From Paraspadella gotoi (Eukaryota > Animalia > Chaetognatha), in NCBI GenBank assembly GCA_051294375.1, contig CM119267.1, forward strand, positions 22,011,486 through 22,075,485: a DNA stretch of 64,000 nucleotides. Reading direction: 5' to 3'. Made by a program: the position numbers and the translations under genes. This document shows, one piece after another, positions 4,739 through 62,256 of this stretch. How positions within the stretch are numbered: the first letter of the stretch is position 1; every line of letters starts with the position of its first letter. The notes under the pieces are model-generated. The model was not told the DNA's origin, ran no database searches, and was given only the letters and a program-made list of their open reading frames with translations.

Positions 4739-40611
<35,873 letters not shown>

Positions 40612-41846
40612 ACTTTTACTTTACGCTATGTTTACTTAAATATACAAAAGTATCCACAACATTAGGTCGTTTTGTGGCTTGTTATCTTTTTTTTATCATT
40701 TACTCTATCCTGCTAGTTTATATTTTGATGTATCGGAAAATGTTTTGAGGTGTTTTCGATTTAAGTTTTTTTTTTCTTTTTTTTTTTCTAGAATTTAGGG
40801 CGAAATTCCAAGCAATTGAAAATAAGTTAGCTTAGCATTAAATTAGCATTCACCTCATATAAATTCGACTGAAGAGGGTCTGTTTTGTGAAATTTAAATA
40901 TTAATATTTTTAACTTAAAAGAGAAAAAAAATTTTATGTGTGTTTTCGTAGATTTAATGTGCTAAATATTTGACATAGAATGAAGTTTAAACTTCCGTTG
41001 TTTCGTAGTTGCTAACATATCATTGCGATTGGCTTATTCGTTGCAAAGTTTACCTTTCCGCGCATTTTGTGGACGCAAACGCTGACCAGTGACCAATGCA
41101 TAGTTTGGTCCGTTCTTGTTTGTCTTGGCTGTGATTATGCAATGATTATTTTTTTAATTCAGTCGTTTTATCACTTGCTGACGATTTGTTTTGCTTTATT
41201 AGTTTTTTCTCGACTCTTTAGCTAGCAACATTGATCGTTATCATACAATTAACATTTTTTTTATTGTGTGTAGTGGCTAGTACGTGTTAAAATTCATTAT
41301 TGTGTCGTCTTCCGATTACGAATAAAATATTTCATTCTAACGTTCCGAGCTTATTATGTTAGTTATAACAGTTATGAGAGCTAATGAAGGTGCGAGCTAG
41401 TTGTTGTATATTGGTTAATAGTATCCCTAGACATTTTTAAAGTAATTGAATTTAAAAAAGAAACGGTAATCCGAAAGGAAAATCTATCTCATGTGATGAG
41501 TCCAGGCATCTGTCGTCCAAGACTTGACGATTTCGAACTGAGAACGTAAACTCGTAGGGTTGAGCGTGCCATCATGTGGTCGCCCATGACAACCGAATAA
41601 CAACGACGACAATCGTAACCCGCATGCGATTTAGGCGTCAAATCGGGGTTCAGCGAACTCGGGGGAACCTGGTTTTGAGAAAAACCTTAGTCCGAATGTA
41701 TTTTTCCATATGTAAACCGTATGTAAACCGCAGTCTTTAAAAGAATTTTTGACTACTAAGTTTCGCTTTTTTCTTTTTTGTTGGTTTTTTTTTTTAACAA
41801 AACAAATTCGACAACAAAAAGTCGATAAAATACGAAAAATCGCGGG

Positions 41847-42113
41847 ATGGCGCGCACGAAACAGACGGCGCGCAAGTCGACCGGCGGGAAGGCGCCGCGG
41901 AAGCAATTGGCGACGCAGGCGGCGCGAAAAGTGCAGACGGCGCCGGGCAAAGGGGGCGCGGGGTCTGCGGGCGCCTTCGCTGGATCCGAGGCGAGAGTAG
42001 ATTTGGAGTTTGCGGAGACGGACGACTCGTTCGAACCGATCGTCGAGACGGTGACGACGCCTTTGGACGCGGACGGGTTCCCGTTGGCGGCGCTGAGGGA
42101 GACGGTCGACCGG
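41847..42113 (+). CDS. Roco exon 1: histone H3 N-terminal tail mimic without histone fold
   Basis: [28 protein letters not shown] equals H3 residues 1-27 except K23Q; then unrelated sequence and a CGG|GTCAGT phase-0 donor. Confidence 0.9.
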
Positions 42114-44328
42114 GTCAGTTTTTATTTAACTAATTTTAATTATTCGAAATAGTTTTTTTTTTTTACTAGATTTAAGGAGGCGACTATTTGTGACATAAAA
42201 GCACGGTATTTAGAGGAGAAACTATAATATTGTGGCGAAACCTAAATTCGCCACCCGTATAGCCATTCGCTTGGACAGCTTACTAGTAACTACTCTTTCA
42301 CCAACCGTGAGTTCCGGGTTCAATCCCATCACGGTCATGCTGGTTAAAGTGAGATGGTGTCGGCATAAACACGCCAGTGACATGGGGTGGTCACTGCAGG
42401 TCCAAAGCCCTGAGCGCCAGCTGTCGGGAGATGCCTTACACCCCAGGCATCACCCATGTCCCCCCGTAGCCCAGCTAATTTTCAACAAAATAGACCCAAA
42501 AAAATAAAAGACGTCGTTAGTAAACATACCCTTGGTAGAAATGACTAATTAAAACTAGAAAAAGCCGCAATATGCAAATTAGATTAAAATCATCACTGCT
42601 GTCGTCGCAGGTCAAGGGCGAGACACTGACCAGCGTGACGTTCCACGGCGCCAACAACGTCACCGACGCCGTCCTCGTCGCCTTCGCCCGCATGGAACTC
42701 GACTTCTCCAAGCTCCGAACTTTCTCCTGCCGAGCGGCGCCGCGTCTAACGGATTTCGGCGTCGCGGCGCTCCTCAAATACTCTGACATGAAGTCGGCGC
42801 GAGAGCTGAGAACGCTGGATTTCGGAGGCTGTCTCCGCTTGACGAACGAGTCGGTCAAATTCGCCGCCGCCTTCTTCGCCGCCCTCGACTTCCAATGTCA
42901 ATTAAAGTTCGACATGACGGCGGCGTTGGCGGACGGAACGTTGGGAGCGTCGCACGCGGGTTGCGCTACGCTGCCGTCCCTCGACGACGGCGCCGCTCCA
43001 ACGAAGCGTTCTCCGCGCAGGCGCACACTCTTTGTCTGTCCGCACGCGTCTGTCGAGACCTCTCTCTCGTGGCGTCTCGTCTTCGGAAATGACGCGACCG
43101 CCTTTCGCGTCGGCGTCGACGTTGTGGCGCACGATTGGATCGTCAAGCCGGATTTGAAAGTCAAGGTGGGAATAAATTAATAAATACATAAATAATTAGG
43201 TAAATAATAAATAAAGAAGTAATCAAATATGTAAATGGATAAAAATATAATATATAAAATATAAATATGAATGAATGAATGAATGAATGAATGAATGAAT
43301 GAATGAATGAATGAATGAATGAATGAATGTATATCCCCCTCTCCTCCCAAGATTGTCGAGGCCGACTTGGGTGGCGTCTTTCTCGACGTCACGTCTCCGC
43401 GTCACGTCTCTCACGTCGTCGTCGCCGCGGACCTTCGACGCTTGGAGAATCTCGAGACGCTCGTCCGCCACGCCAACCAGTGCGTCGCTTTCTTCGTCGA
43501 CAAGGTGCGTAAAACAGTGGCAATGATGATGGAGACGGAATCGTGAAGAGGAATGATAAAGTAAAGGCATTGGAGTTTTTACAAGTGGTTAAGTTTCGAC
43601 GATTTCTTTATATTTCTTAACAATTTCTTAATCCCCCTAGATAACAAATTATGTAGGGAGAATTAATAGGGAGTGGTCCTGCCATGGACTCTGGGAGAGA
43701 AAAAAACGAGACTTTGAGAGAGTCTTGATTGAAAGCGTGCCAGGCCATGTTATTATCTTGTCAAAGTCAAGGGCAAGATAGCAGATACGAAGCCTTTTTC
43801 TTTCATAACTTGAAACGATTTGTATACAAACGGTTAACTACTTTTGACCGAAATATAAACAACGCAATTCCTCAATAAAATGGTTTCCCCCATTTTTTTC
43901 CCGCCAGCTCTCAATCCCTCGAGCGGCCATCTTGAATCCCGGATTCGGCGACGCCGCCGACGCCCCCACGAAGCGCTACTTCGAGAGCGGCATCGGCACC
44001 AACGCCGCCTGGCGCAACGACGGCGTCCTCGAGTTCCAAGTCGGCCCCACGGTCTTGGCCGCACGTGAAATCGGCCCCATGGCCAACTTCACGTCCTGCG
44101 ATCCGCTGGTCGAGAATCACCCGGAGTTCGAGTTGATCGTCGAGGGGAGTCAAGGCGAGAAGGTCGACGTCTACTTCTCGTTATTGGTGGAACCCTGGGA
44201 ACAAATGTCGAGTCTCGTCGACTTCGCTTTATACGACGTTCGGCCCAACGAGAAAGTCGGCATCGGGCTGGAGGGCGTGGGGGAGTCATGGTGAGAGAGA
44301 CAGAGAGACAGGCATGAGAGAGAGAGGG

Positions 44329-44408
<80 letters not shown>

Positions 44409-44495
44409 TTAAAAAGGGATATTATTGAGGGAGCAACTGTATAACTACTAGTGTAACTATTGTACTTTTTAGGTAGAGAGAGAGAGAGAGGGAGA

Positions 44496-44549
<54 letters not shown>

Positions 44550-44559
44550 AGACTGATGG

Positions 44560-44611
<52 letters not shown>

Positions 44612-47600
44612 TGAAAGCATCGAAAAATCATTTTCTCCACTTGATTCATTTTATTCTCAGGCCCTCGCCCTTCGCAACGGGACAATAATTAAAAGCCAAA
44701 GAATTCAGGGTCAAGTTGGTTGGGGTCTTTTCGCGCGTTGCGAGATGGAAACGCCAAACCCCTGCGTCATCCCCGCCCACGTCGTTAACGCCGACGCCCC
44801 CTTCGGCGAAACCAACAAGTTCCACAGATTGAGACGCATCGAAGTTGGCTACACGAAATTGGCCAAGTTGCCCGACGAATCCTTCTCGCTCAACTCGTGG
44901 CGCCGCTCGACCAACAAAGACTTCTCCGCGACGAGCCGCTGGGTGCTTGGGGCGCACCTGTTGTTCGCGCGGACGGCGACCTTGGATCAGATAGAGAACG
45001 AGCTTCACAGCGTCTTGAAGGAGACTCAGCTGAGGCAGTTGATCCAGCGTCTAGACGTTTCCACGGTAACGACGGACGTCGCGACCCTGGTGGCCGAAAA
45101 GTTCTCGACTCACGACATCAACGATCAAAGCAGCTCGAAGGTAGGGCCTCTGGTCAATGCCCTCTACACCATCGCTGATGGCGTCGTCCAGTTGCTGTTA
45201 AGTCGGACTGCGGACGAAGAATGCGCTTACCTGAGAACGTTTTTCGATCGGCCTTACTATTCCGAGCCGCAGGCGAGATTTCGGAGGATCAGCTCGCATC
45301 AAACGCTAACTATGGACGGCGTCGTCGGCGTTACTAAGGACGCCGGTCTCGATCGAAAGGACGATGCCGGCGAATTCGGCTTCATCGATCGCGGCGCCCT
45401 GACTCCGAGATTTAATGGATTCGAGGCGCGAGTGGAAAAGGTGGGAAATTCTCTAGAATCTGGCGCGTTCGTGATGGGACTCAGTCGCCCGATGCGATCC
45501 AAGGGGCCCACTATTTTCGAGTACAACGCCGCCACCGGGGAAGTAACGATCAACGGCGTCGTCATGGACACCGTCGCTAAAGACGGAGTCCGCAAAGTTA
45601 CCTGCAATTCGATCAACGACGTCGTCTCCATCTACATCGAAGGAGCGGAAGGCAACAAAGTCGTCCTTTGCAAAAACTTCAAGCAAATATTTTCCGCCGA
45701 TTTGGAAATGAAGTGTTTTCCCAAGTCCAAAGGGATCGGCGCCGTCGTGCCTTACCTTTCCGTTCAAAATTCCGCCTTTCAAGTTCGTCTCCTCAACTAC
45801 CTCACGTCCGGATTTTCATCGACTTTGGTCGGTCGCACCAAAGGTCGCCAGATGCGCGTCGACTCCGCGACCGGAACCGTCGTCAATGAGAACGAGGGCT
45901 CGGGCGTCTACGTGAGCGACAAACCTTTATCTGAATGGAATCATACTTTTTCCTTTCACTTAAATTCGATAGAGGGCGTCAAAGTTGGACTAGTGCCACG
46001 CCCATTGATCGACGTGGAAGAGGATGGATCCTTTAGAGTTTCGATTAAAGACGCCGTGGCTGACGCCGGCTCCGCTGCTGCTGGCGCCGCTGATTCGGGC
46101 TCTCCACACTCGACGAAAAGCAGAAAGATAGAATTTAGTCTCGACTTAGAATCGCTTAATCATTGGGACTTTGTCAACGACGGCCGCGTGCGATTCGATG
46201 TCGATTTACCCTTGAAACTGAGCGTCGAGGGCGAATCGAAAGTCAAAGATTTGACGTGGAATGTGGAAGAGTCTTGGGTCCGAAACGAGGTTCTTTATCC
46301 CGCCATCTTCGTAGACAAAAAGGGCATCGGATTTAGTCTCGATAAAACCGTTCAACGCTTCGATTCCAACGAGATTAACGAAAAGATTTCCTCGCCCTTC
46401 AGCGCCGTGTTGATCGCGGACGGCGGCGTCGCCCCGGAGAGGATCGACGAGGCTCGCCGCGCCATCAAGAAGGCGTTGGCCGAGTGGGGACCGGCGGAGA
46501 ACGACCTCGCCGGAGAGGATAGAATCGACGGCGAAGCGGATGACCCGCCCGAGGAACTTTTTCTTCAAGAGAAAAAAGGAAAGATGTTGGATCGATCGCT
46601 TAGGATCGAGTGGATAAGGAAGAAGCTGAAAAAGGTCGAAGTGTCGATCCTGATTTCGGACAAAGACTTGAAGGAAGTGAAGAAGACGTCGAATCACGAA
46701 TTTTGGAAAAACAACAACAGCAACGATCTCACGTTGAGCGGATTGAGGAAGCGGCTCACCGCTGCCATGGACGGAGATTTCTCACAGACGGAGACCTTGA
46801 AGATCCTCGACAAACTCTGGGGACGATTGGATGAGAACGACCTCGACAAAAAGGTGCTGCAAAAGGCGGGAGTCAAAATCGAGCGGGCGGACAAACTAAT
46901 CCAACGGTTCGTCGATGATTTTCAATTCTCCCGCCGCGTGGGATTTCAACTCCTTCGTCACCTCCACGACCGCGGCAGGGTGATCCTCTTCGAAAACCTC
47001 GACCCCCCGAGCGTCGTCCTGGACGTCCAGTGGTTCGCCGGATTCCTCTCGGCGGCCTACTCGGCGCCGACGACCTACTCGGCCAATCCGGCCATCCCTT
47101 TTCTTTCCAGCGTTCCCGTCTTCAACAAATCAAACGAATTCTCTCGAGTCGATCTCCTCAAATCGCTCAAACTGGTCGTCGACGTCCCTCACCTCCGCCA
47201 AGTCGGACGAGATATTCCGCGCTTCACTGGCGTAAACCTCCACGCCCTGGAGGCGGACGAGGAGGCGTTGAAGGCGTTCCTTGCGCCTTACCCGGGTAAG
47301 TACGAGGCGCGGGCGACGTTCGGGCCGCAGGGCGCGGCGTCGGATAGGTGTCCAGTTCCGCCGACGTTTTGGTTCAAACTATTCGCCGTCTCCTTGGCGA
47401 CGGCCAAATTGGTCCACGCCTCAAAAGGCGGCGTCGTCGTGCGGCGCGGCTGCGTCGACGCCGTCGTTCGTCGCGACGACGCCGACTGCGTCGTCCTCGT
47501 CGTCCACACCTTCGTCGCGGACGACGTCGTCGCCGCGTTCGAGTCGGCCGTCGACGTTGGGGCGCACTTGTTGACTCTTTCGCCAGTCATGCAGGTTGGA

Positions 47601-48560
47601 ATAGGGGGGGTGCTAAAACGTTGTAAAAAATTGAAGCGAATTATTGTGTTCTTTAATCAAATTTGCGTATTGCAGTTACCATTTTTTTGTTTGAAAAAAT
47701 AATTTTAAGTTATGTTAACATTTTAAATTTAAAAGTAAAATATCGAATGAGATCTGTTTTTTTGTTTTCTTATTTTGGCATCTCCTTTTCTTTTTAGTTA
47801 TACATAGGTTGTAAAGAAAACTTTTCCTTTTAGTATTTTTCTTCTAATATTTTCGACTTGGAACTGTTATTTAAGTGTTTGAAATGTTTGAAAAAAATTA
47901 TTCTCATAATGCTATCCCTTTTATTTATACCGCACCTTTCTGAGTAATTATTATTAATTTATTACATTTATCATATATTTATTAAAAATAAACTGGCCAT
48001 TAATTATTATTGTACTGAGCATAAAGTTTATAAACTGAAAAAGGCTTCGCGTCGATTCTAAAAACAAATACATTATTAACCCCCCCCCCCAACCGCCAAC
48101 TCTGCCTTCACAGGCATTCTGGTCCGTCTTCGCCTCTCAATCCGAGACGATCGAGAGCCTCCTCGTGGAATGCGGCGTCTTCGACTTCCAACGCCTCGTC
48201 AACTCCTCGCGCCCGCCACCTCGCGGCCTCTTCGGCTTTTCCCGCATCCACTCGTGGACGCCGCGCCCCGGCGACGACGCCGACGTCTTCGTCTGCAGCC
48301 ACGGCGTCCACTGCGCCGCCGAGGGAGCCGTCTGCAAGCACGCCGTATTGACGCGCGTCGATGGAGGACGATGCGAGTGCGACGCCGAGCATGGCGCCCG
48401 CGCCCTCGTCTGTCGAGACTGCGGAATTTGTAGGCGATTCTGCGCGCCTCTGGTGGCGAAGATGCAAACGAGGCTACGGCCTGCGAATGTCGTCGGCGTC
48501 GAAACGAATCTCAAATTTATGTTCCGCGCTCATGATCGTAAGGAAGAAGAGAGAGAGAGG

Positions 48561-48607
<47 letters not shown>

Positions 48608-51600
48608 AAAGCAGTGTGATGTGATTTTTTTTCGTGGTTATTCATTTGTTTAAAATCACAAATTCACATCGCATCCAAATATTAAATCCTTTTAGTTCCG
48701 GCGACATTTCACTTGACTTTGATGGATTTCGCGATAGACACCGCAGGTGCGAACTTGTTGAAGATTTTGTAGTTGATATTGTTTTGGGGCGACTTACCAT
48801 AGGCCTTACCCATTGTTACTCTCCCTCCTCTAGCTTTTTTCCCTCAAATTGTTTTCCATTTTGTCAAGGTTGCGATCAAGTAACGTATCACGCGGCAAAC
48901 GTCGGCCAACAAGAAGCCAGTGTCGAACTCTGGTTGATCAATCAAAACGATACCAGGTGACTAAAAAAATTGTTTTCTTGTTAACGATATATATTCAATT
49001 AACAACTTACTCAATCTTTTCTATTTCACCCTCAGATCCCCAATCCGCGTTCTCCCCCCTTCCCCGGTTCTCTGTCCCCATCTACCCCTTGCCCTCCGCC
49101 TTTCTCGACTGCAGCAAGGGGCCGGAGAAGTCGACGGCCTTACGCTCGATCCGGGCAGCGGAGTTTCTGCGGAGATCCGCTTGAGGCGCGCGGGTGCTAG
49201 GGTCGAGGGCATCAAAAAGACAAATGCGCAATGGGGGAAGAGGTTAAAGAAAGAGTACGAGGAGGAAGTGCAAGGAGACGAGATTAGGGGTGAGAGATTA
49301 TGAAAAACCAATTTTTAAAAAAAATTACAGTAGAAATACGTATATAAAATATATATTTATAAAGTTATAAACATACATGCATGCATACATACATGCATTC
49401 CCTTTGTTCAATTTCGCCGCATAGTTTTTAAATTGATTACATGAAATTGGCACAACCAATAAAAAGATTATTCATTTATTTAAATAATAAGCTATCTTGC
49501 CCCTGACATTGGACTTGCAATGTTGGGTTTTTGGCCTCTTACATTTTACAAGATGATAGTATAGCAGGACTTTGCAAACATTAAATCGAGACTCTCACAC
49601 AGTCGAGTTTATTTACTCCAATTCTGGCTAAACTTAATTCTACCTTGTAATATGTTTTAAAATTCAACTTCCCCCGCCAAACCGTCCCAAGGCGCCTGGC
49701 CCCTCTCCGCCCACAGCCCCGGTTTCATTGTCCGCGTACTTGGCATCGACGCTCCCTCCAAACCGATCAACGGTCAGGAGATGTCACTCGGAGTCTCCAA
49801 CTCGCCCGTCGACGCCGAAATCTTTGGCGAAGGCGGCGCCGTTCGCGAAACGCTGGACAAGCTCGTCGTCTCGCTGGAGGAAGTGTATCCGGAAGCGTTG
49901 AAAGCCGGCGACGAGATCGAGTTTCGACTGCTCGGAGGCGGCGTAGGCGGCGTAGGCGGCGGCGGAGACAGGAACAATGACGACGTGGAATACGACGAAA
50001 CCCTTTATTACTTAGCTGAGGTGAATCCGACTTTTTGTATTGAGATAATTAGCGAGGGAGAAATTAAAATTAATCATGCGATCTAAACATCATGATGATA
50101 AAATATTAACTTCATTATACATTTTTTTATTAATTTTTATTGTTTTAATTAATTTTTATTGTTTTGATTAATTATTAATTTTTAATTTTTGATTTTTACG
50201 TTCGGAGCTGTTGGCTTACTTGTCTCCATTCCCTGAATTAAAACCAATTAATTAAAATAACGATTTCACTTTTATAATTTTTTTGCTAATCGTTAACCTG
50301 GGGAGACGTGACTAATTCGTCGATTGTCATCAACCTTTAAGGTCTCCGTCAACCGCGATATCGTAGAGACGCGGCGCGCCCTCAAGTCGGTCGTCGACGC
50401 CGCGGCGCCTCTCGGTCTCTTCCCCTGGATCGACGCCCCGCGCGATTTGACGCTGAGGATGTCGCGGTTGCGCCTCGACTCCGCCCAACGCCTCGTCGAC
50501 ATCGAGGAGGCCTTCGAGCTCGACGCCGAGATCGAGGGGGAGGTAAGGGGAATGGTGAATGTTGATTCGGGACGTTGGGGAGTGTATAATATAGATGTAT
50601 AATTTGTATATATGTATAGATGTATATATGTATAGATGTATATATAGATTTAATATTTAATACATTTATTTTCAAGATTTTGTTCGTTCAAGAATGATAT
50701 CCGATCGATTCTTAGCTTATGATCTTCACTCTCATTTTCATATCGCAGCACTAGGCAACTTGTACCTTTAATTTAAAAAATACTGAGAACAGTCTTTTTT
50801 ATGGGAAGCATTTTCAAACAAACAATACAAGGCTAGAGAAAACCCAACCCGAGAAAAGACGTCAACAATTTAGACTTGTATTCTCACACAACTCCAGACA
50901 ATGATAACGTCACGTTACCTAGGCTAAAATGTAATGATAAAACGTCACATAATGAATTCACACCATTTGCGCAACAGCCGATTCTCAGGCTCCTAATGCG
51001 GGCCTTTTAAATTCTGACGATCAATAACTAATCTTCACAATTCACAAAGAAATAACTTTCTTAAACCTTACCCCATCAAACCCCGCAGGAGGACGGGCGG
51101 ATTACGGGCATCGACGAGATTGTCGGCGTCTTCGATCCCTCGCCCTCGATCCAAGTGGAGATGTCGCTCGTCGTCGACGGCGTCGAGACGGACCTCGTGG
51201 GTGTGCCCGATGCTGAGTACAAACTCCTCGTCGTGAAGACAGATGCGAAGGTCGCAAAGGGGGGTGTGAAGGAAGGGAAAAGATGACCAATTGACCACAA
51301 TGACCAGTCAATCAATTTAACATATCAATTTATCAAATGGATCGATCTTCAGATCGAAGACTTCATCTCAGCCGATGGGGCCGTCGTTCCATCCCCGCCT
51401 CCCAAGGAAGACGCCGTCAAACTCCGCCTTTCGAAACCCATCGTCAACAGTTTCCACTTTCCGAGATTCGAGGCTGTCGACGACGAAAACGACGACGAAG
51501 ATAAAAACGAAGACGACGACGTCAAAAACGACGCCCACATCCAGAGTGACATCTTCAGCGTCCCTCGAGTCCTCTCCCCACGACATCCCCGCGGCTGCAT

Positions 51601-54600
51601 CGTCGCCCCGCTCTCCACTGAGACCCTCCGCCGATGCCTGTGGGAACTCCAGAACGAGACTCTCGAGGACGCGAAGCTATTGAATCATTCGCGACCGAAG
51701 AGAATTCCTCTTCCCTTTTCGATCCTCGTACCGGATTCCATCGGTCGACCGCCGACGTTGTCGAAGGTTTGATTTGGAAAAAGTTTCTAAAAAAGAGTTA
51801 AATACAAAAGCTCTTTTATATAAATTACTTACAGCTTAACTCCATAATTATCCCACATGTTCTCCCCCTTTTATTTGTCCTTATTAAGTTATTACTAATA
51901 ACAAATTTTTGTTGTATAAATTTATTTTTTTAATAAATTTTATCCGAAATTTGGAATGAAGTTATCTTTTAAGCTCTTAAGGGGACTAGGTTAGGAATTA
52001 TGGTAATAAATATGAAAAAAAATTAAGGTTAAATTAAGTTTACGGATTAAAGAACATAATTAAAACGCTTTCGGAAATTAATGCCCGACCATCGAGCAAT
52101 AAATAAATTACATTTTTCCCTCCACCAAATCAGGCGTTCACATTATCGTCCTTGCAATGGCATCTTCTCTGTCGTTTCCACATAGAGGACGCCGACGAAG
52201 ACGACGCCGCCATTTCCCGCTTGTCCAGCTTCCACCTGGCGGCCGAACCGCCCGTCGAACGACCCGATCTCGTCGACAAGAGCGTCTTTCTCGACGGGAA
52301 GCTCCGGACGATCTTCGTGTCGATGTGGAAGGCGATGGTGACGCTGCCGTCGGGAGGAGGAGGAGGAGGAGGAGGAGGAGGAGAAGAAGAAGAAGAAAAG
52401 GGAGGAAAAGAGAAAACTGAAGATGGTAAATGAAATTGATTGGAAAAGACTATATTCCATTTTTGAATATAAAACAATAGTAGTTAAAATGTTTCCATTT
52501 TATTTTTAAAATCTTAATTTATTTTGCTTAGTAAAATCATACCTACAATATGCAAACGAGATTCCAAATGAGATTCCTTTTTTAAAAATAAATAATATAT
52601 TGAGGCGTTTTCTACAAAATATCTTTTACTATCAATTAAATTTTATTAAACTTATTTTATGAAATATTAACAATAGGAAACGGGGATGACTCCTCTTCCT
52701 CCTCTTCCTCCATTTCCGTCTACACAAAAGAACAATTGGTCACCGACGCCTTGGAAATTTACGCCATCTGCCTCACGCTGGCGGACGTCGGTCGCGAGAG
52801 CGTGGAGGGCGTCTCGGAAGAAATCCCCTTCTTCCTCTGTCATGCCCACGAGTTGTTGAAGAGACGGTGAGGTGGTTAGATGGACGGATGTATCAATGGA
52901 TGGATGGATGAATGGAGTTATTGAACTATTTATGAATAAATGGATGAAGTTATAGAAGAGTTAATGAATGGGTTGATGAATGAAGGAAACGATTGAACAA
53001 TTGATGAATGGATGTATGTTAAATATTTTAGTTCTAAAAAATGAATGAATGAAATTTTGAAGTTGTCGTAAGCCTTCACCAATTTAAATAAACTAATATC
53101 AACATAACATTAAATAAAAACAAATCCTTCTCCCCATCTTCACCCAATCCAGACCCTCCGAAGGTGACGTGGACTTCTCCACTTTATCTCCTTACCAACG
53201 CAGCATCTTCGATCTCAACCTCTCGCCGGCGATGACCAAATCTCTGCCCGCCTCCGACTCCCAGGATCAACGGACCGAGTCTCTGGAAGCGGCCAAGCGG
53301 GAAGCGGCCGAGCGGGGCGACTCCAAACGGGTCGAGTTGCTCAAGAAAGATCTCCTCCGGGAGCACGTTGCGGCGGCGGAGCGGGCCTTCTTCCACGCCT
53401 TCCCCAATTTGCTTCGGATTCGCCTGGAGTTGGGCGCGGGCGGCGGCGAGGTGCCGCCCTTGAAGGCCCAGTTCTGCCCCATTCTCCGATCCTTCGCGGT
53501 TGCAGGGACCAATGAGGCGAACGACTTGGCAGAGTTTGACCTCAAGTTTTGGTACAACTCGTTCAATCCCGCGGAGACGGGGAAACTCAGCAAGATCCGC
53601 CGATTCGGCGTGACCAATCTGCCTCTGCAAAACGCCGACAACGACCACCTCACCAGCTGCATCGGGCTGACAAAGTTGGACCTTTCCAACTGCAAACTTT
53701 CCTTGCTGCCAGAAAGTCTCGGAAACTTGATAAAATTGGAATGGCTCGACGTCTCGGAGAATCCTCTGATGAAGCTTCCGGACAACTTGTCGAAATTGAG
53801 TCGGCTGAAGACGTTGAAGATCTCGGGTCTGCCGCAGATCGTGATGACGGGATCCTGTACCAAAGAGGCCTTCATGAAGTTTGTCCGCTCCTTCGCGATG
53901 ACCAAAGGGGTCTCGGTGGAATCGGCCGTGGAACTCTTCGAAGAGACCGACCTGGACAAGAACGGCGTCCTCAGTTTCTCTGAGATTGCCAAACTCAACG
54001 CTAAGATGTTCTTCGCCTTCCAAAGACTCGGTCTCGACAAGCGACCCGCCGACGCCCTCGGGGGTTTTCCTGCGCAAATTTTCTCGCTGACTAACCTGGA
54101 ACACCTCGACCTCTCCTTCCAAGGGATGTTCCGCGTTCCCCCAGAGATCTCTCGCCTGGTCAACCTCAAGAAGCTTGTACTAAAGCACTGCTCTCGCCTT
54201 CAAGAAGTCTCGCCAGAAGCTGGGGCCTTGACTAAGCTCGAGCAACTAGACCTGCGTCATTGTCCCAACCTGAAGACTCCTCCCCAAGAGGTCGTGTCCA
54301 AAGGCTTTAAATCCGTCTACGCCTACCTCAAACGACTCCAGGGATCCTTCGTGACCTGCCGTCGCACTAAACTCATGCTCGTCGGGACGGGCGGCGCGGG
54401 CAAGACGTCGTTGCTTCGGGCGTTGATGAGTCCGACTCGATCGACGGCGGGCACCGACAGAGAGAACATCACCGACGGGATCGACATTCATCGATGGGAG
54501 ATCGAAGCCAAAGACGGATCAAAGATTCAGTACAGCGCTTGGGACTTTGCAGGCCAAACTGTCTATTACAACACCCACCAATACTTTCTGACCAAGCGAG

Positions 54601-57600
54601 CCGTCTATTTGCTGCTGTGGACGACGCGGATCGGGTTCGAGCACGCCGGGCTGGACTTTTGGCTCAGCTCGATCGCCTGCCACGCCCCCAAGACGCCTGT
54701 GTTCGTCGTGGGCACTCATTGCGACAAGGTCAGCAAGACGGACTTGCCTCGGCAGGATCTCAAGACACGATATCCTCAGATCGTCGGATTCCATTTCGTC
54801 TCCAGCATCACTGGACTCGGGATCCAGCGGCTCCTCGACTCGATCACCGCTGAGACCCTCAAGCAGAAGTACATGGGAGAACAGATCCCGCGGGTGTATC
54901 TGGATTTGGAGGAAAGGCTCGTCAAGTCGCGTCTGAAGAGGAAGACCGTGGACTGGGAGACGGTCAAGGCGTTGGGTAACGAGGTAATGAGGACTTTAGG
55001 AGTGAAAGCCGTAAGTGGAATTTGTGTGTATTTACTTTTAAATTGAATTTTTATGAGCATTATGTTCAGTGGCAAAATGATATCCCTCGAGCCGGATTCG
55101 AACCAGCGACCTAAGGATATCTGCTGCGTTCCTACTACAGTCCTCCGCTCTACCAACTGAGCTATCAAGGGATTGCTATGAAAGGCGAAATTGGAAATTC
55201 CAATTCAATTCTAACCTATCTTATTATTATAATAATTAAAGTTAAAAATTTCTCATTTTTAAATAAGCGAATGAAAAAACTTTAAAATATGTAAGTTGTC
55301 GTCGCTGTCATCGTCGTCGTCGTAGTGGTCGTCCCCATTCTCCTCGAAAAGAGAAACGAAGATCTCGTCACACTGCCGCCAGCTGAAAATTTTTTCCTAT
55401 ACTTGCTATAGCGGACAGAACAAATGCAGCTTCCCATGTGGTCTAGTGGTTAGGATTCGGCGCTTTCACCGCCGCGGCCGGGGTTCGATTCCCCGCATGG
55501 GAGAATTTTTTTCATCCGAAAATAAATATTTTACATTTTACTATATATGTAATGATTATTTTCTAAAAAATTTCGACAGAAAATTTTATTTGTAATCCTC
55601 AACGAAAATAGTAAATTTATAGATTGTCAGGAATGGGATTCGAACCCACGCTCACATATGTGAACTGCGACCTGAACGCAGCGCCTTAGACCGCTCGGCC
55701 ATCCTGACACGGCTGTCAAGAAACAATGGATAATGGGATGATTTGAACTAGAGTTCCGGATAACGTGTAATTTTTTAGGAAATTCGCTTAACCGTTAAAA
55801 CTAACATTTTTTAACGGTTAACGTTAAGATCGTTAATTTTATAATTCAACTTTAAATTTAAAATATTAAGATTTAAAACAAATAAAGTATTTAATGGTAT
55901 TTTCTCTTTAACTCTGACTCTTGAATGCGCTGATAAAGACTTGAAACAGAGTCGAAACATGTCTATTTTTTATGTCAAATAAAATTGTTGTTGTAACAAA
56001 ACAAATATTTTTGCTAATCTCATAACACAACGAAACGAAAGGATACCATCAAATTCTAATTCTATATTTTGTTTTCTCTTTCTCTCTTTTGCTTTCTCTT
56101 TTTCTTCTCTACTTCTTCTATTCCCCATATTTTTTTTAGTTGTTAGTTTCTTAAACGCTTGTTTTCTGTTGTTAATCTTTCATAAACTATGACCAATGGT
56201 CATTGACCATAAATATAAATATGATTTTAATTTATTGATAGACTGGTTGATTTATCGATTGATCAAAATATTTATTGATTAATAAATATATTTTTTAGTT
56301 TAGTTAAAAAGTATATCATCATTATTCTTTTTTATATATCTTTTTTAAGATTCGTTCCTTCTATTTTTAATTTTTAAATTTTTTAAAATAATTTTTTTAT
56401 TTTGTTTTTATTCATTTTTTTCATTCATTCGGTTTTATTTCATTTGCTTCTTTGTTAATTTTAAAGAGGGAAAGAAAAAGAGAGAAAAAGTAAAATAAGA
56501 GGGATTATTTATTTTTAGCTAAATTGAATACATATTATTGCATGAAAGGGCAAAAAAAGGAAAAAGGTAAAAGCAAAGGGCGAAAAAAGGAGAAAAAGAA
56601 AGGAGAAAGAAAAAGGGGAAAAGTGAGAATGAAAAAGAAAGGAACAGGAGGAGATAAATAAAGGGGAAGAATGAATGTGGCGAATTCACGGAATCGCCAA
56701 CTTCCTTCAGACGGCGTTAAAGGCGTGAAGAATTCTTCGCGGCGTCGCGGGCTGCAACAGTTCGTCAGAACCACTTGGTTCTATAAAAATGTTCTAGAAC
56801 AAAGTTCTTGATTTGTTCACGGTTAAAATTGGTACCTTAATAAAATAATCAAAGCATATAGAATATTCTATATGCGTTAAAAAGCAATGGCAATAACAAG
56901 CAATAATATTAATCAATAAATATCAATAATAACAATTATTAAACGTTAACAAGGAAATAAATATTAACATTATGGAGATGTTGATCCACTTGGTAAAGAA
57001 GATTCTTTGTGAGTGAATAAAGAATAACATTGGTAAGGTTCTAAAAGAGGAACCATAAAACTTATGCTAGTGTACTCTAGCATCAATATAGTAAACATAA
57101 TGTTCTTTTGTTTTAACATGATTAAGTTTATATTTAGGGTAAGAATGGAATATCTATTTGATAAGTACCGAAGTGGTGAAAACCATAATGCATAGTTGCT
57201 GATTGAAAGGTCCCGGGATCGAATCGGGAAATCATTATTTTGCTTATTGATTTAAAGTGTTTATAATTATATATAAAACTTTGAAGACGAGTTTGTTTAT
57301 AATTGAAAATAGGCCTTCACTCTTGCTGAGCTGCTTTGGAAGGCGAAGAAGACGGGATCGAATCCCACATGAATAAGAGAGAGATGAGGATAGAAAAAAA
57401 AGGAGAAAATAACAAAGGAAAAAAGCAGGGAAAAATTGGAGAAGAGAGAGAGGGGTAAAAATATGGTGAGAAGGAGAGAGGAGAATAAGAGAGAACAGAA
57501 AAAAATAGTTTTTTTTTTTTAAATTTAAAGATTTCATACCAAAAAATGAAAAAAATCACATTTGAAAATTAACCGAATTTAACCGTTAAAATGAATATAT

Positions 57601-60518
57601 TAACGGTTAAGTTAAAATTATTTTTAACCGTTAATAACCGTTAACAGTTAACGGTTATCGGAACACTAATTTGAACCCAATTGAAATAGGAGATGAAAAT
57701 TTAAAAAATTTAAATGTTAATGTCTTAATCTTAAATCTCAGATCTTAAATCCAGGTGGGCGTGTCCGAGGAGAAGGACCTCAAAGACGCCGTCTCCTTCC
57801 TTCACGATCTCGGCTCCGTCCAATACTTCGACACTGAGTTCCTGCGCAACGTCCTCGTCGCCGACCCGCAGTGGATCGTCGACGTCATGGCCTGCGTCGT
57901 CTCGGTCAAGGATTCGCCCGTCCGCGAAGGGCGACTTCGTCACGAGGACATCCGAGTCGTCTGGAAGGACTTTCCCTCGGAGCTGCACGAGTGGCTCCTG
58001 CGGCTGACGGAAGAGTTCGACCTTACTTTTAGGTGAGAAGGATGTTAGGAAAGGCACTTTCGACGGCCGCACCCTAATCGTCGTGTGACCCTTATGCTTT
58101 GTCTCAGAATCCGAAGAGGTCCCGAGTTCTAACCTCAGTAAGGAAGTTCTTTGAAAAGAGAAATTCGCTATATTCACTGCAGATTTGTAAATAGACCGAT
58201 CAGAAACTATAGTTTTTAATCTCTTTTGGATCTGTGTGTCTATTGGTGGACCATACTATGTTAAATATATATATGTAGGAGACAATATCGCGGACAATCT
58301 GCATACCGCATAGCCGACAACATTTACCCTCCAACATATAGTATTATTAGTAAATAGAATTTATTAGGGAAAAAGATTTATACTATCCATTGAGAAACAA
58401 ACAAAAGCGCATCTTCAAAGAGGAGGAAAAAGAGAAAGAAGAAAATTTTTTTTAAAACAAAATCTCCCAAAAATTATTCATTATTAACTAATTAATAATA
58501 ATAAAAATCAGAGCCGTGACTTAAGACTCAGTCGGAGACTGGATCTCGTTTAATATTTACATACATCCTTTATATTTCGTACCCCGCCCCCCTCCAACCC
58601 CCCAATTAAGAGATCCCGAGCGGGCATTGAGTGTGATTCCCTGCATGCTGCCCGAACGGCCGCCCGACAATCTGGATGAAGAGTGGAGGAAAAACCTTGA
58701 GTCGGGCGTCGCTTCCGGCGTCGAGGGAAGGATCGCCTACGAATTCTCTTATCTCCCCGCGGGACTTTTTAATCGGACGCAGGTTATTGATCCTAAGAGG
58801 AATTCGGTTATGAGGGTAATTAAACAAAATTTGCTTGACCCGTCGTGCGAATTGCGAGTATTTTTGTGAAAACAAATGAATGAATTAAATAGATGAATAA
58901 ATAAATAAACCAGGTTGATCCCAGCTGGTTAAATAACAGAAGGAGCAGAGATATTGAAAAAGAGAGAGCGCGATCCTGGTTATGTGCCTCCTTCAAAGAC
59001 TCCGAACTTACCGATGTGACATTCATAGTGATTAATATTCATTGTGTATTTATAATTGATTCATTACTTGTTCCCTTTCCGTTAAGAGAGCATCGTGTCT
59101 CGGGTCTCGTGCTTCCCAGGCCCGGCCGGCGCCCGCCGGCATCGCCAACAACAATCCACCTCTAAATAAATCAATCAATCAATCAATCAATCCGTAAATG
59201 AATCAGGGAACGAATGAAACGATTTCCCCTCCCACTTTCACGCAAAGGTCCGTCTCTTCCAACTCAGCAGCAACTCCATGATCTGGAAGTCGGGATCTCT
59301 CCTTCACAAGAACGGACATCGCGCCCTTATGCGGCAGACCTCCTCTCGCCATCTCTCCGTCAAAGTCTTGGGTCCGCAGCCGGAAAACCTCATCCTCATT
59401 GTTCACGAGGTGATTGATTTTTGTGGTTGTGTCTTTGTCAAGCTGAATTTTTCGCGGCCTCCAGAATAAAAAACAAACAAGCGTTTATGACTTTGTGACT
59501 TTGTGACTTTTTCACTACCTGGCGAACTAATTTTAGATTCTCGCGCATTAAAATACTTGAAGTCAATGAATAAATAATAATATGTAACACGCATCACGTA
59601 ATTCGTAAATAAAATCTTGCTTTGATATCGTTGAGTAAAAATCCACTTCGGTAATTTTGAGTTTTTTTTTTTTTTTTTTTTTTTTGACAAAATATTTTTG
59701 CATAACATTTAACATTTAACAAAATAAGGGAATTTTGTCCCTTTAAAAGGATGGTAGTTTGGCGTCAGTCACTTGATAACTTCACCGAAGTTTTCTAAGT
59801 CGTCATGTTTTACTTTTTGTCTTCAAATTTGAAGACACAAAATCTCTGGATCTCATTTTCTCCCACCTTCAGGTCGTTGAAGGACTCGTGGAGGAATCCT
59901 TCTCGGGAATCCGGTACGAGTACAGCCTTCCATGTCCCGAGTGTCGGCGGACGGGGACTTACGATCCGGACATGATCAATTCCGCCCTCGTGCAAAAGGT
60001 GATGATGATGATGACGATGATGATAATGATGATGTAAATATCTTGACAGACGGCAGACTTAATTATTATTTTGGTGATATTAATTATAGTGATGAAACTG
60101 ATGATGATGTCGAAAACGGGGTTGATGCTTGCTTGCATGACAAAGTTTTTTTATCATTTAAATTTACAACGCTACTCTATCCATTTTACATTTTCTACTA
60201 ACGCCCATTCATTCTTATCCCAACAGGCTGTCGACTTTCGCGCCCCCTTCATTCAATGCCGCAAATACTTTCACACTCTGTCCATGGCGGAGATCAAAGG
60301 AGCGATGCCGACTTCGTCTGGATCGGAGTTCGACGCCCAGTTGGAGCGAACCGTCGACGAGTTGCAAGATCGGCACAAGGTCAGTTCGTCTTGAACTGGG
60401 GAGAGTTTTCGTGAAAGCGTCGAATATGAATGGGGCAGTTGGTAAAAAGTTTTTGTTTGTCTCGAATAGTGACATAATTTATTGCAAAATTCCTACGCCT
60501 ACCGACCCTACAGTTTAG

Positions 60519-60580
<62 letters not shown>

Positions 60581-62204
60581 TTCTGTCTCCCCCCTACCTC
60601 TCATAACAGAACCTCCAATACGACGTATACATCTCCCTCTGCACGGCGGACGGAAAGGATCGTCCGGAGGGGTCGCTGGATCCGGTGAGGTTGAGAGACG
60701 ACGTCGTCGCCGCAGGATTCACAGTTTACTTACCCGAGGAGAGCGACGCCGACGACGTTGAGAAAGAGATGATCATGATAAAGAATTGCAAGGTAAGGGC
60801 GAATTTAAGTAGAGTACCAAAATTTCATTTGCATATTGGGGTAAGCATATTAGATTGTTTTTAATTAATAACTTGACAAGGGTGAGGTCTCTCTTCCTAC
60901 ATTTCTTAAACTAACTTTAAAACTGATTTTTCCAGGTTCATTTTTCGTCTAACAGTTTTTACGCGTCGGGCCTAATGAAATGCATATAGTTAATAATATT
61001 TAGAAATCAGAAATGTATGTAGTGAGGCGGTGAAAAAGTGATAATTTTTTTTTCGCGCGTACTTGGCGGCGATATATGCCCCGAACGTACATAGCCAAAG
61101 GTTAACTATTATCTGCAGCTAAAAAACTTTAGTATCTTTATCTTTAGTATCTATCACAGTATCTTCTTTTGTAGCTTAATGTCATTGTACATACTATTTA
61201 TCATTTTATCTATTTACTTATCTATCTACCTATCGATCTAAATATCTATCTATTCTAATTTATCTATTATGGCAACAGCCGGGTTGCCTGTGATGCCCAT
61301 TGGGATGGGGCATCTCACTGTTGGCTTTGGGGGCTTCCGACCCTCAGTGACGCATCCAGTCACTGGCGCAGTTACCCTAGGACGGTCTCGCTTTGCCAAC
61401 GCAGAGGGAAGTCGTGAGGACTGTAGATGGAACACAACGCCTGGGGTGGTGTGTTCCCAATGGTATTGGTTAAACGACGGTGGACGTGAGGCGGTGTGAA
61501 TATACCGCCACACTATATCAATTTATCCATTTAACTATTCATCAATCTATCTATAAATCATTTTATCTATCTATATATCAATCAACCTATCTATCCCTCA
61601 GGTCTTCCTATTCCTCGCCTCCGACTCTTACGCCGCCGAGGATCGATGCCTCAAACTCTTCACTTTCGCCAAGAAGTTTCTCTCGAAGCCGCTGATGGTC
61701 GTGTTGGCGGCAAAGCGAGACCTCCTAGGATAACCGCGCCAGTGACTGGAACGTCATTGAGGGTCGGAAGCCCCAAAGCTAACAATGAGATGCCCCATCC
61801 CAACGGGCATCACAGGCAACCCGGCTGTTGCCATACACTAATCTTAATCTTTTTTCACATCCTTAACCTAATCACTAAACCAAATCCTTATAATTAATCC
61901 TAATAAGTAACCTAATTCTTTAACTAGGTATAAAGTTAGAACGCAAATAGGGTGCTTTTGAAAAATATCGCCCAAAAAAACCTTTGCGACGGCGTCGGCG
62001 CTGTTGTACCAACAATAACTGACGAAGCACTTGGGCGCGACCTCCGCCGCTCCACCTGACCCTTCCGCTCCTTTAGTCTTCAGCGTCAGCTGCTCCTTTA
62101 AATCGATCAATTTTTCGTCGTAGAGATTTTCGTTTCTATGAAATAATAAATTTTATAATAAATAATTTTCAGATTAAGAAGATTTTAATCATCACCAACT
62201 CTCT

Positions 62205-62256
<52 letters not shown>

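What the first reader, a model, noticed from the sequence alone, without database searches (positions are those of the whole stretch)
42611..52430. Cryptic first ROC-COR unit: a tandem 'double Roco' with a pseudo-GTPase
Seen: after three cysteine-containing-type LRRs comes [15 protein letters not shown]...GVDVVAHDW...IVEADLGG. This parallels [15 protein letters not shown]...GIDIHRW...WDFAGQ of the intact ROC but lacks the P-loop GK. Later, [13 protein letters not shown]...VVLDVQWF (~46950) parallels [11 protein letters not shown]...[15 protein letters not shown] parallels LPAGLFNR, and [10 protein letters not shown]...WHLLCRFH resembles COR C-terminal motifs. Known: Roco proteins act as dimers through ROC-COR. 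Inference: an internal duplication left one dead and one live G domain, possibly forming an intramolecular pseudo-dimer.
Basis: partly seen in the sequence, partly recalled or inferred. Interest (0 to 1): 0.7.

Follow-up and report, generated by a model that had tools for sequence, protein, structure and literature searches.

The report
Giant Roco hiding a dead GTPase
This animal-type gene is predicted to encode one giant Roco signalling protein (a relative of the Parkinson's protein LRRK2) that carries, ahead of its normal GTP-binding switch, a second, worn-down copy of that switch lacking the GTP-binding motifs; relatives across many invertebrates keep the same hidden copy, so it likely works as a built-in regulator of the live switch.

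Summary
Largely supported. All quoted motifs are in the window, in one in-phase GT-AG gene model (41847 to at least 60792, 3196+ aa) of the invertebrate LRR-EF-Roc-COR-TIR family. Pfam and self-BLAST see nothing upstream, but the N-terminal unit is family-wide: a COR profile built from N-terminal halves hits 103 of 103 live COR units, and a P-loop-less homolog folds confidently (pLDDT 90) into a Ras-like G domain matching LRRK2 Roc at Z 11.9. Trichoplax alone keeps the P-loop; 0 of 46 keep WDxxG. The window's own first COR is solid (97.8%); its pseudo-Roc is shown only through a nemertean bridge (Z 9.3) and is likely split by a ~700-aa SPRY-like insert. Not supported: [18 protein letters not shown] as COR. 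Untested: the cis pseudo-dimer. Extra: the predicted protein starts with a 27/28-identical histone H3 tail, as do two molluscan homologs. I found no description of the cryptic unit in nine literature searches.

The parts
41847..41930 (+). Histone H3 N-terminal tail copy (27 of 28 residues identical, K23 replaced by Q) at the predicted start of the protein; exon 41847-42113
   Evidence: tblastn with a stored H3, 96% over residues 1-28, no histone-fold remainder in the window; phase-0 GT-AG join to 42611; RNA-like contig covers 41845-42066 with 0 differences; join to exon 2 not seen directly
42620..42886 (+). About three cysteine-containing (FBXL-type) LRRs opening unit 1
   Evidence: family LRR profile E 5e-11; Trichoplax equivalent matches FBXL2 at Z 15.1, rmsd 1.8, 120 aligned
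43022..43504 (+). Pseudo-Roc, first part (predicted beta1-alpha1-beta2-beta3-beta4-alpha3); P-loop replaced by [15 protein letters not shown] replaced by VEADLG; intron 43166-43351 inside
   Evidence: aligns end to end with Tubulanus P0310 184-275, score 65, Z 9.3, 0 of 2000 shuffles, best of 167 proteins; P0310 matches the family pseudo-Roc profile (E 3e-5, HHalign 87%); not significant directly
43908..46382 (+). About 700-aa insert inside the pseudo-Roc; its second half is SPRY/Neuralized-like (lead only)
   Evidence: Atlas feature hits 0.92-0.93, 155-167 features shared; weak family-SPRY profile match E 0.005; no Pfam hit; a shorter beta-rich insert at the same point in P0310
46383..46721 (+). 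Pseudo-Roc, second part (likely beta5-alpha4-helix-beta6-alpha5)
   Evidence: Z 2.6 and 3.0 against two family profiles (2 and 0 of 120 shuffles; 12 tests run); not significant by HHalign
46845..48182 (+). First (degenerate) COR: COR-A about 46845-47306, COR-B about 47307-48182
   Evidence: HHalign 97.8%, E 8e-13 against family N-COR without the window protein; hmmsearch E 1e-8, 2e-7
48213..48497 (+). Cys/His-rich module after the first COR, shared with homologs (likely metal-binding)
   Evidence: 14 homolog hits at E<0.05; tblastn; covered by RNA-like contig
48696..52866 (+). About 660 aa unassigned linker exons, including the [10 protein letters not shown] (51704) and WHLLCRFH (52158) motifs; not COR
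   Evidence: no Pfam family, no COR profile match, no homolog match beyond one E 0.046 hit; four splice joints 48537-49692 seen in contigs
53586..54275 (+). LRR - EF-hand pair - LRR of unit 2
   Evidence: Pfam LRR_14, LRR_4, LRR_8 above cut-off; EF-hand_7 E 1e-4, below cut-off
54366..54839 (+). Intact Roc GTPase ([18 protein letters not shown])
   Evidence: Pfam Roc E 4e-22; motifs
54840..60304 (+). Live COR-A/COR-B over six exons
   Evidence: Pfam COR-A E 9e-22, COR-B E 2e-6; gene model
60616..63760 (+). TIR region; assembly is gapped and locally duplicated here, so the C terminus is not resolved
   Evidence: Pfam TIR_2 E 3e-5, below cut-off, at 63166-63306; family profile; duplicated blocks and N runs

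Best explanation
The window is predicted to encode one giant Roco protein in which a degenerate LRR-Roc-COR unit that lacks the GTP-binding motifs precedes an intact LRR-Roc-COR-TIR unit, and the dead unit likely works as a built-in, nucleotide-independent partner that would dock on the live Roc-COR and set its switch. Shown: the motifs, the open spliced frame, COR homology of the first unit, a Ras-like predicted fold for P-loop-less homologs, loss of G1 and G3, retention across placozoan, molluscan, annelid, rotifer, flatworm, nematode, nemertean and amphioxus proteins (my odds for this anatomy about 0.9). Inferred: one ancient duplication or paralogue fusion; no nucleotide binding by unit 1; an intracellular immune-type role with TIR output. 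Speculative step committed to: Roco proteins cycle between COR-B-mediated dimers and monomers, so a tethered dead Roc-COR would act as a permanent cis partner, holding the live GTPase and its TIRs off until a ligand bound to the variable modules (LRR, SPRY, MBT, H3-like tail) displaces it.
For: N-only COR profile hits 92 of 103 live units at E<1e-3, reversed controls 0, and 103 of 103 with the window protein left out. HHalign N-COR vs live COR 99.0%; N-Roc vs live Roc 90.7%, 81.9% without Trichoplax; reversed and cross controls 0.1-0.4%. Trichoplax unit 1 model: top Foldseek hits LRRK1, LRRK2, C. tepidum Roco, best E 2e-11; COR-B Z 12.2, rmsd 2.2, 114 aligned. P-loop-less Mactra unit, alignment without Trichoplax: pLDDT 90, pTM 0.87; all listed Foldseek and VIA hits are G-domain proteins, LRRK2 Z 11.9, rmsd 3.8, 171 aligned. 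Search of 1.84 billion proteins with the unit-1 profile: of 146 new hits 91 are unit-1-like and 55 ordinary Roco-like. Whole COR including COR-B is kept, with W-x-x-G...G among its best-conserved columns; COR-B is the dimer subdomain in CtRoco (PMC6337361, passages). N and C subtrees mirror each other in several clades.
Against: Unit 1 is only 17% identical between relatives against 54-64% for unit 2, which is loose for a fixed interface with a conserved partner. In the window protein a ~700-aa insert splits the pseudo-Roc and about 1150 aa separate the two units. The window's own pseudo-Roc fails direct profile tests and rests on one bridge picked after inspection. The Trichoplax model is low-confidence over its G domain (mean pLDDT 54.5, pTM 0.33). 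The unit-1 profile finds no Roco among PDB sequences at E<=10. No transcript joint was examined between 50150 and the live unit.
Confidence: 0.45

Rival explanations
1. The anatomy is right, but the dead unit does not touch the live Roc-COR: it is an independent sensor or scaffold platform (presenting LRR, SPRY, MBT or decoy modules) or it oligomerises with the dead unit of a second molecule.
For: Fast divergence of unit 1 (17% vs 54-64%); variable inserts inside its G domain (helical, dynein-stalk-like, SPRY-like); long variable linker; pseudo-GTPases elsewhere act as scaffolds (PMC10211241, passages).
Against: A complete COR, including the dimerising COR-B, is kept in register in 68 of 85 N-terminal halves; a plain scaffold would not obviously need it.
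Confidence: 0.35
2. Origin rival: unit 1 came from fusion of a different Roco paralogue (FBXL-type LRR, Roc, long spacer, COR, like the sea-anemone gene NG1), not from internal duplication.
For: Unit 1 has FBXL-type LRRs unlike those of unit 2; NG1 is described with FBXL-like LRR, Roc, a weak COR ~300 aa downstream and TIR_2 (PMC5094078, section 11), close to the ~270-310-aa LRR-to-COR gap of most unit-1 copies; the tree is unrooted.
Against: The N-COR profile scores the family's own live COR far higher than 11 other Rocos (median 34.9 vs 10.1 bits); no NG1 sequence was in that set.
Confidence: 0.3
3. In this organism the upstream exons form a separate gene, or a decaying remnant, not one protein with the live Roco.
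For: The window's unit 1 is among the most diverged; exon 52677-52866 has a modest acceptor; the 44276/44290-44661/44696 junction is ambiguous; no contig joint links the halves.
Against: All 22 modelled exons join in phase with GT-AG and no stop over 3196 codons, including a 2934-nt exon; both options at the ambiguous junction keep the frame; family profiles match in collinear order along the whole model; homologs of 2700-3300 aa hold both units in one annotated protein; four spliced joints appear in contigs.
Confidence: 0.1
4. The window's Roc-like stretch is a chance resemblance; only the COR is homologous.
For: Direct tests fail; Atlas gives only 0.75 for the part inside exon 2.
Against: Position between LRR and COR as in 45 homologs; end-to-end match to P0310, best of 167, Z 6.4 even against its whole N half, with the insert starting at the same residue.
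Confidence: 0.08

Closest known systems
Invertebrate LRR-(MBT/EF-hand)-Roc-COR-TIR Roco proteins (Trichoplax TRIADDRAFT_57945; Aplysia LOC101848126, listed as a putative TLR with ROCO)
   Same: Same C-terminal architecture, 40-52% identity over LRR-EF-Roc; these proteins carry the same cryptic unit 1. Architectures are described in PMC4104024 (figure legend and passages) and PMC9334734 (passages).
   Different: The passages seen name one Roc and one COR; none mentions an N-terminal dead Roc-COR. The window protein has no detectable MBT, has the SPRY-like module inside the pseudo-Roc, and begins with an H3 tail.
LRRK1/LRRK2 and Chlorobium tepidum Roco
   Same: LRR-Roc-COR order and fold; dimerisation through COR-B is the model for the proposed cis contact (PMC6337361, passages).
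   Different: One Roc-COR per chain; kinase or no effector instead of TIR; dimers form between two chains with two live G domains.
p190RhoGAP pseudoGTPase domains and CENP-M
   Same: Ras-like folds without working nucleotide motifs inside or beside signalling proteins (PMC10211241, passages).
   Different: Not Roc-COR, not paired with a live copy of the same module; that review has 0 occurrences of 'Roco' or 'LRRK'.
Sea-anemone NG1 (LRR-Roc-COR-TIR_2)
   Same: FBXL-like LRR, Roc, COR about 300 aa downstream (PMC5094078, section 11).
   Different: Described as a single Roc-COR with a detectable GTPase; sequence not compared here.
Unnamed 1285-aa protein P0320 with two intact Roc-COR units
   Same: Tandem Roc-COR in one chain (Pfam Roc, COR-A, COR-B each with 2 stretches).
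   Different: Both units keep P-loop and WDFGG, lie back to back, no TIR; one unnamed record only.

Membership tests
Roco family (unit 2) | Roc GTPase with G1, G3, G4 motifs followed by COR | tested here: met
   Pfam Roc E 4e-22, COR-A E 9e-22, COR-B E 2e-6; [18 protein letters not shown]
Invertebrate LRR-EF-Roc-COR-TIR Roco subfamily | LRR-EF-LRR-Roc-COR followed by TIR, with long N-terminal extension | tested here: met
   top hits 40-52% identical; collinear profile matches; TIR_2 E 3e-5 but below the Pfam cut-off and in a gapped region
Roc-COR tandem (unit 1) | COR homology downstream of a G domain | tested here: met
   window protein HHalign 97.8% to family N-COR; family N-COR 99.0% to live COR; COR-B fold Z 12.2
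Roc-COR tandem (unit 1) | Ras-like G-domain fold, family level | tested here: met
   Mactra P0028 268-493 model pLDDT 90; G-domain hits throughout, LRRK2 Z 11.9
Roc-COR tandem (unit 1) | Ras-like G-domain fold in the window's own protein | tested here: inconclusive
   direct profile tests negative; transitive link through P0310 positive; the spliced domain was not folded
Active Roc GTPase (unit 1) | P-loop GxxxxGK[ST] and switch II DxxG | tested here: not met
   absent in the window; in-place P-loop in 1 of 46 units (Trichoplax; a second regex hit lies outside the P-loop position), WDxxG in 0 of 46; no P-loop in 30 further units
PseudoGTPase | No nucleotide binding or hydrolysis in assay | not testable with these tools
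   inferred from motif loss only
Roco-type dimer formed in cis | COR-B/COR-B and Roc/Roc contact between the two units | not tested
   no complex model was obtained
Histone H3 | Histone-fold domain after the tail | tested here: not met
   only residues 1-28 match; no significant histone-fold match in the window

The most novel reading that the evidence does not exclude
An ancient, animal-wide class of 'double Roco' immune sensors in which a dead Roc-COR forms an intramolecular pseudo-dimer with the live one, a natural single-chain model of the Roco/LRRK2 dimer switch, and in which some members, including this one, display a near-perfect histone H3 tail as an integrated decoy or modification switch that trips TIR signalling when it is modified, clipped or bound.
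Probability: 0.2. Interest if true: 0.88.

Novelty: new variant of a known kind. Interest (0 to 1): 0.68.

Why it matters
Whether and how Roc-COR dimerisation controls GTPase activity is an open question for LRRK2 and all Roco proteins (PMC6337361, passages). A natural protein that tethers a nucleotide-dead Roc-COR to a live one makes that question directly testable in a single chain, and Trichoplax (P-loop kept, DxxG lost) marks an intermediate in the decay. It also re-annotates the 'empty' N-terminal half of a widespread, little-studied group of invertebrate TIR proteins, adds a pseudoGTPase class absent from the review consulted, and points to an H3-tail copy on a predicted immune GTPase.

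Tried and rejected
Pfam on 11 coding segments between 42611 and 52864: 0 families at E<=1. Live Roc and COR profiles against the window's N half: nothing significant. Trichoplax pseudo-Roc as iterative seed: finds only itself. Window pseudo-Roc against family profiles, also enlarged to 68 sequences and with the insert left out: not significant (best 2.5%, 1 of 60 shuffles as high). My first reading of CVAFFVDK as strand 5/G4 was dropped: P0310 places it at the end of helix 3. [18 protein letters not shown] as COR or third unit: rejected. Large exon 44661-47591: no homolog among 7978 candidates of 1711-4885 aa, only chance PDB hits. Unit-1 profile against PDB sequences: no Roco. Atlas on the exon-2 part of the pseudo-Roc: 0.75, uninformative. 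Complex prediction of unit 1 with unit 2 was not available, so there is no verdict on binding. No run on record as RNA was listed; one guessed-RNA run holds 0.27 of the words; its contigs do not cover 44101-47279, which is no evidence either way. The tree's outgroup did not load, so it is unrooted, and it is the quick method with long-branch warnings. Homolog search with exon 1 returned essentially histone records. Three look-ups of earlier scan findings returned nothing. Literature searches listed no paper describing a duplicated or dead Roc-COR or an H3-tailed Roco; subscription papers, figures and supplements were not seen and could hold such a description.
Full report
Setting and gene model. 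The window is eukaryotic, with GC-rich exons, AT-rich introns and tRNA genes. Joining 22 exons from 41847 to 60792 at GT-AG sites gives 3196 codons with no stop (sites). Contigs of one guessed-RNA run show four spliced joints (48537/48696, 48746/48869, 48956/49036, 49289/49692) and cover exon 1 (41845-42066, 0 differences) and the start of exon 2. The exon 1-2 join and the joins from 50020 to the live unit are predicted, not observed. One junction is ambiguous (donor 44276 or 44290; acceptor 44661 or 44696); both pairings keep the frame. The TIR-coding end lies in gapped, locally duplicated assembly.

Observation. All quoted motifs are present. The C-terminal unit is an ordinary LRR-EF-LRR-Roc-COR followed by TIR. 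Its best relatives are 'uncharacterized' invertebrate proteins of up to 3050 aa (340 hits among 7984 candidates, 120 listed); 20 of the 120 also match the upstream exons by tblastn at E<0.05, mostly at collinear positions.

Family-level test of COR. A live Roc-COR profile gave weak second hits in 18 of 85 N-terminal halves. An iterative profile grown from N-terminal halves alone covers 68 of 85 (the window protein entered during iteration, so its score there is circular). That profile hits 92 of 103 live units at E<1e-3, in register, and 0 reversed controls; rebuilt from 42 homologs without the window protein it hits 103 of 103, and 5 of 11 other Rocos (median 34.9 vs 10.1 bits). HHalign of N-COR with live COR gives 99.0%, controls under 0.4%. 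The window's residues 1190-1480 match the N-COR profile at 97.8%.

Family-level test of Roc. In 46 proteins (45 homologs plus the window) the FBXL-type LRR and N-COR occur in order. The stretch between them matches live Roc at 90.7%, or 81.9% without Trichoplax; by hmmsearch the signal is weak (6 of 103 at E<0.01, reversed 0). Trichoplax keeps a P-loop and a GTH motif in place but has ECTS for DxxG; no other unit has an in-place P-loop and 0 of 46 have WDxxG; 30 further units lack the P-loop too. A Lys at the start of strand 1 (93%) and a Glu at the G3 Asp position (88%) are conserved. A model of Trichoplax unit 1 is low-confidence (pLDDT 54.5), yet its top Foldseek hits are LRRK1, LRRK2 and CtRoco and its COR-B aligns with 3dpu at Z 12.2. 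A P-loop-less Mactra unit, folded from an alignment without Trichoplax, is confident (pLDDT 90, pTM 0.87) with six strands and five helices in Ras order plus a helical hairpin after helix 4; the listed hits are G-domain proteins in both searches (Arl13B Z 13.0, LRRK2 Z 11.9, M. barkeri Roco2 Z 11.6). An unbiased search of 1.84 billion proteins with a 12-sequence unit-1 profile gave 199 hits at E<=0.001; of the 146 new ones listed, 91 are unit-1-like and 55 ordinary Roco-like (two of these are family members; 38 of 55 show a P-loop or WDxxG), none is neither. The same profile finds no Roco among PDB sequences.

The window's own pseudo-Roc. Direct tests fail: HHalign 0.2-0.6% and Z 1.05 where five divergent relatives score 4.9-10.6. 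The large search supplied a bridge: Tubulanus P0310 (label). Window residues 228-325 align with its 184-275 end to end (score 65, Z 9.3, 0 of 2000 shuffles; best of 167 proteins; Z 6.4 against its whole N half), and P0310 matches the family pseudo-Roc profile (E 3e-5, 87%); BLASTP joins LRR and this stretch in one alignment (E 5e-7). I noticed P0310 by eye before testing. Both proteins break off after helix 3 into a beta-rich insert. In the window it is about 700 aa and partly SPRY-like (lead), and the remaining strand 5-helix 5 part likely lies at 1023-1135 (Z 2.6-3.0; not seen by HHalign). [10 protein letters not shown]...WHLLCRFH has no support as COR.

History. In a quick, unrooted tree of 22 N and 22 C CORs the two sets separate (SH-aLRT 99) and several subclades recur on both sides (long-branch warnings apply). 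This fits one ancient event with co-descent. Unit 1 evolves much faster (17% vs 54-64% mean identity among 40 proteins). Closeness to the family's own COR favours duplication; different LRR types and the description of anemone NG1 (PMC5094078, section 11) leave paralogue fusion open. One unnamed protein has two intact Roc-COR units in tandem, so such tandems arise.

Mechanism. Shown: anatomy and motif loss. From established knowledge: CtRoco dimerises mainly through the C-terminal COR subdomain with Roc-Roc contacts, and Roco proteins are proposed to cycle between dimer and monomer (PMC6337361, passages). Inferred: unit 1 binds no nucleotide, keeps a full COR, and so most likely serves as a tethered fixed partner that restrains the live GTPase and TIR output until a ligand engages the variable modules (0.45). 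The main rival is an independent scaffold or trans-oligomerisation role (0.35). No binding test was obtained.

H3 tail. The predicted first exon encodes 27 of the first 28 residues of histone H3 (K23 replaced by Q; K4, K9, S10, K14, K18, K27 kept), with no histone fold in the window. Two of 120 first-search proteins start the same way (Mercenaria P0055, Ylistrum P0081), none of 146 later ones; in the tree each pairs with a tail-less relative, so repeated gain, repeated loss or gene-model error are all possible. Many relatives carry MBT repeats, Trichoplax also chromo/Tudor-like hits; that MBT reads methyl-lysine is recalled. The window protein has no detectable MBT.

Literature. Nine searches. 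Seen as passages: PMC9334734, PMC11378527, PMC6337361, PMC4104024, PMC10211241, PMC8195603, PMC5094078 (plus section 11); the rest as listings only. These name the family's LRR/MBT/EF/Roc/COR/TIR domains with a single Roc-COR. None of the passages describes a dead N-terminal Roc-COR or an H3 tail. Figures, supplements and subscription papers (including Marin's Roco surveys, seen only as citations) were not read.

Verdict. A real, ancient, apparently unannotated variant of the Roco architecture. Observation partly confirmed, interpretation partly supported; new variant of a known kind; interest 0.68.

Noticed in passing
window 41847-41930: Predicted first exon starts with a near-perfect histone H3 tail (27/28, K23Q); two molluscan homologs (P0055, P0081) also start MARTKQTAR.
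   Followed up: partly
P0045 (Trichoplax) residues 187-295: Only family member found whose first unit keeps an in-place P-loop and GTH motif while lacking DxxG: an intermediate state of decay.
   Followed up: partly
P0320 (unnamed record, 1285 aa): LRR followed by two intact back-to-back Roc-COR units and a C-terminal hydrophobic segment: a double Roco with two live G domains.
   Followed up: partly
window 55083-55708: Three tRNA genes (55083-55171 minus, likely intron-containing; Glu 55431-55504; Leu 55624-55709 minus) inside the intron between live Roc and COR-A; two tRNA-Asp genes at 39004-39220.
   Followed up: no
window 42290-42467 (also near 43523-43811 and 49303-49591): Intronic stretches with very high contig depth and many variant contigs in run X1: high-copy repeats; the first is single-copy in the window with no Rfam match.
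   Followed up: partly
window 61200-64000: TIR exon present twice (61602 and 63575, second copy with single-base differences), a 323-bp inverted duplicate and N gaps: likely assembly artefact obscuring the C terminus.
   Followed up: partly
P0054, P0060, P0051, P0070, P0107: Relatives with a dynein-stalk-like (Pfam MT) helical insert within the pseudo-Roc region: the dead G domain tolerates different inserts.
   Followed up: no
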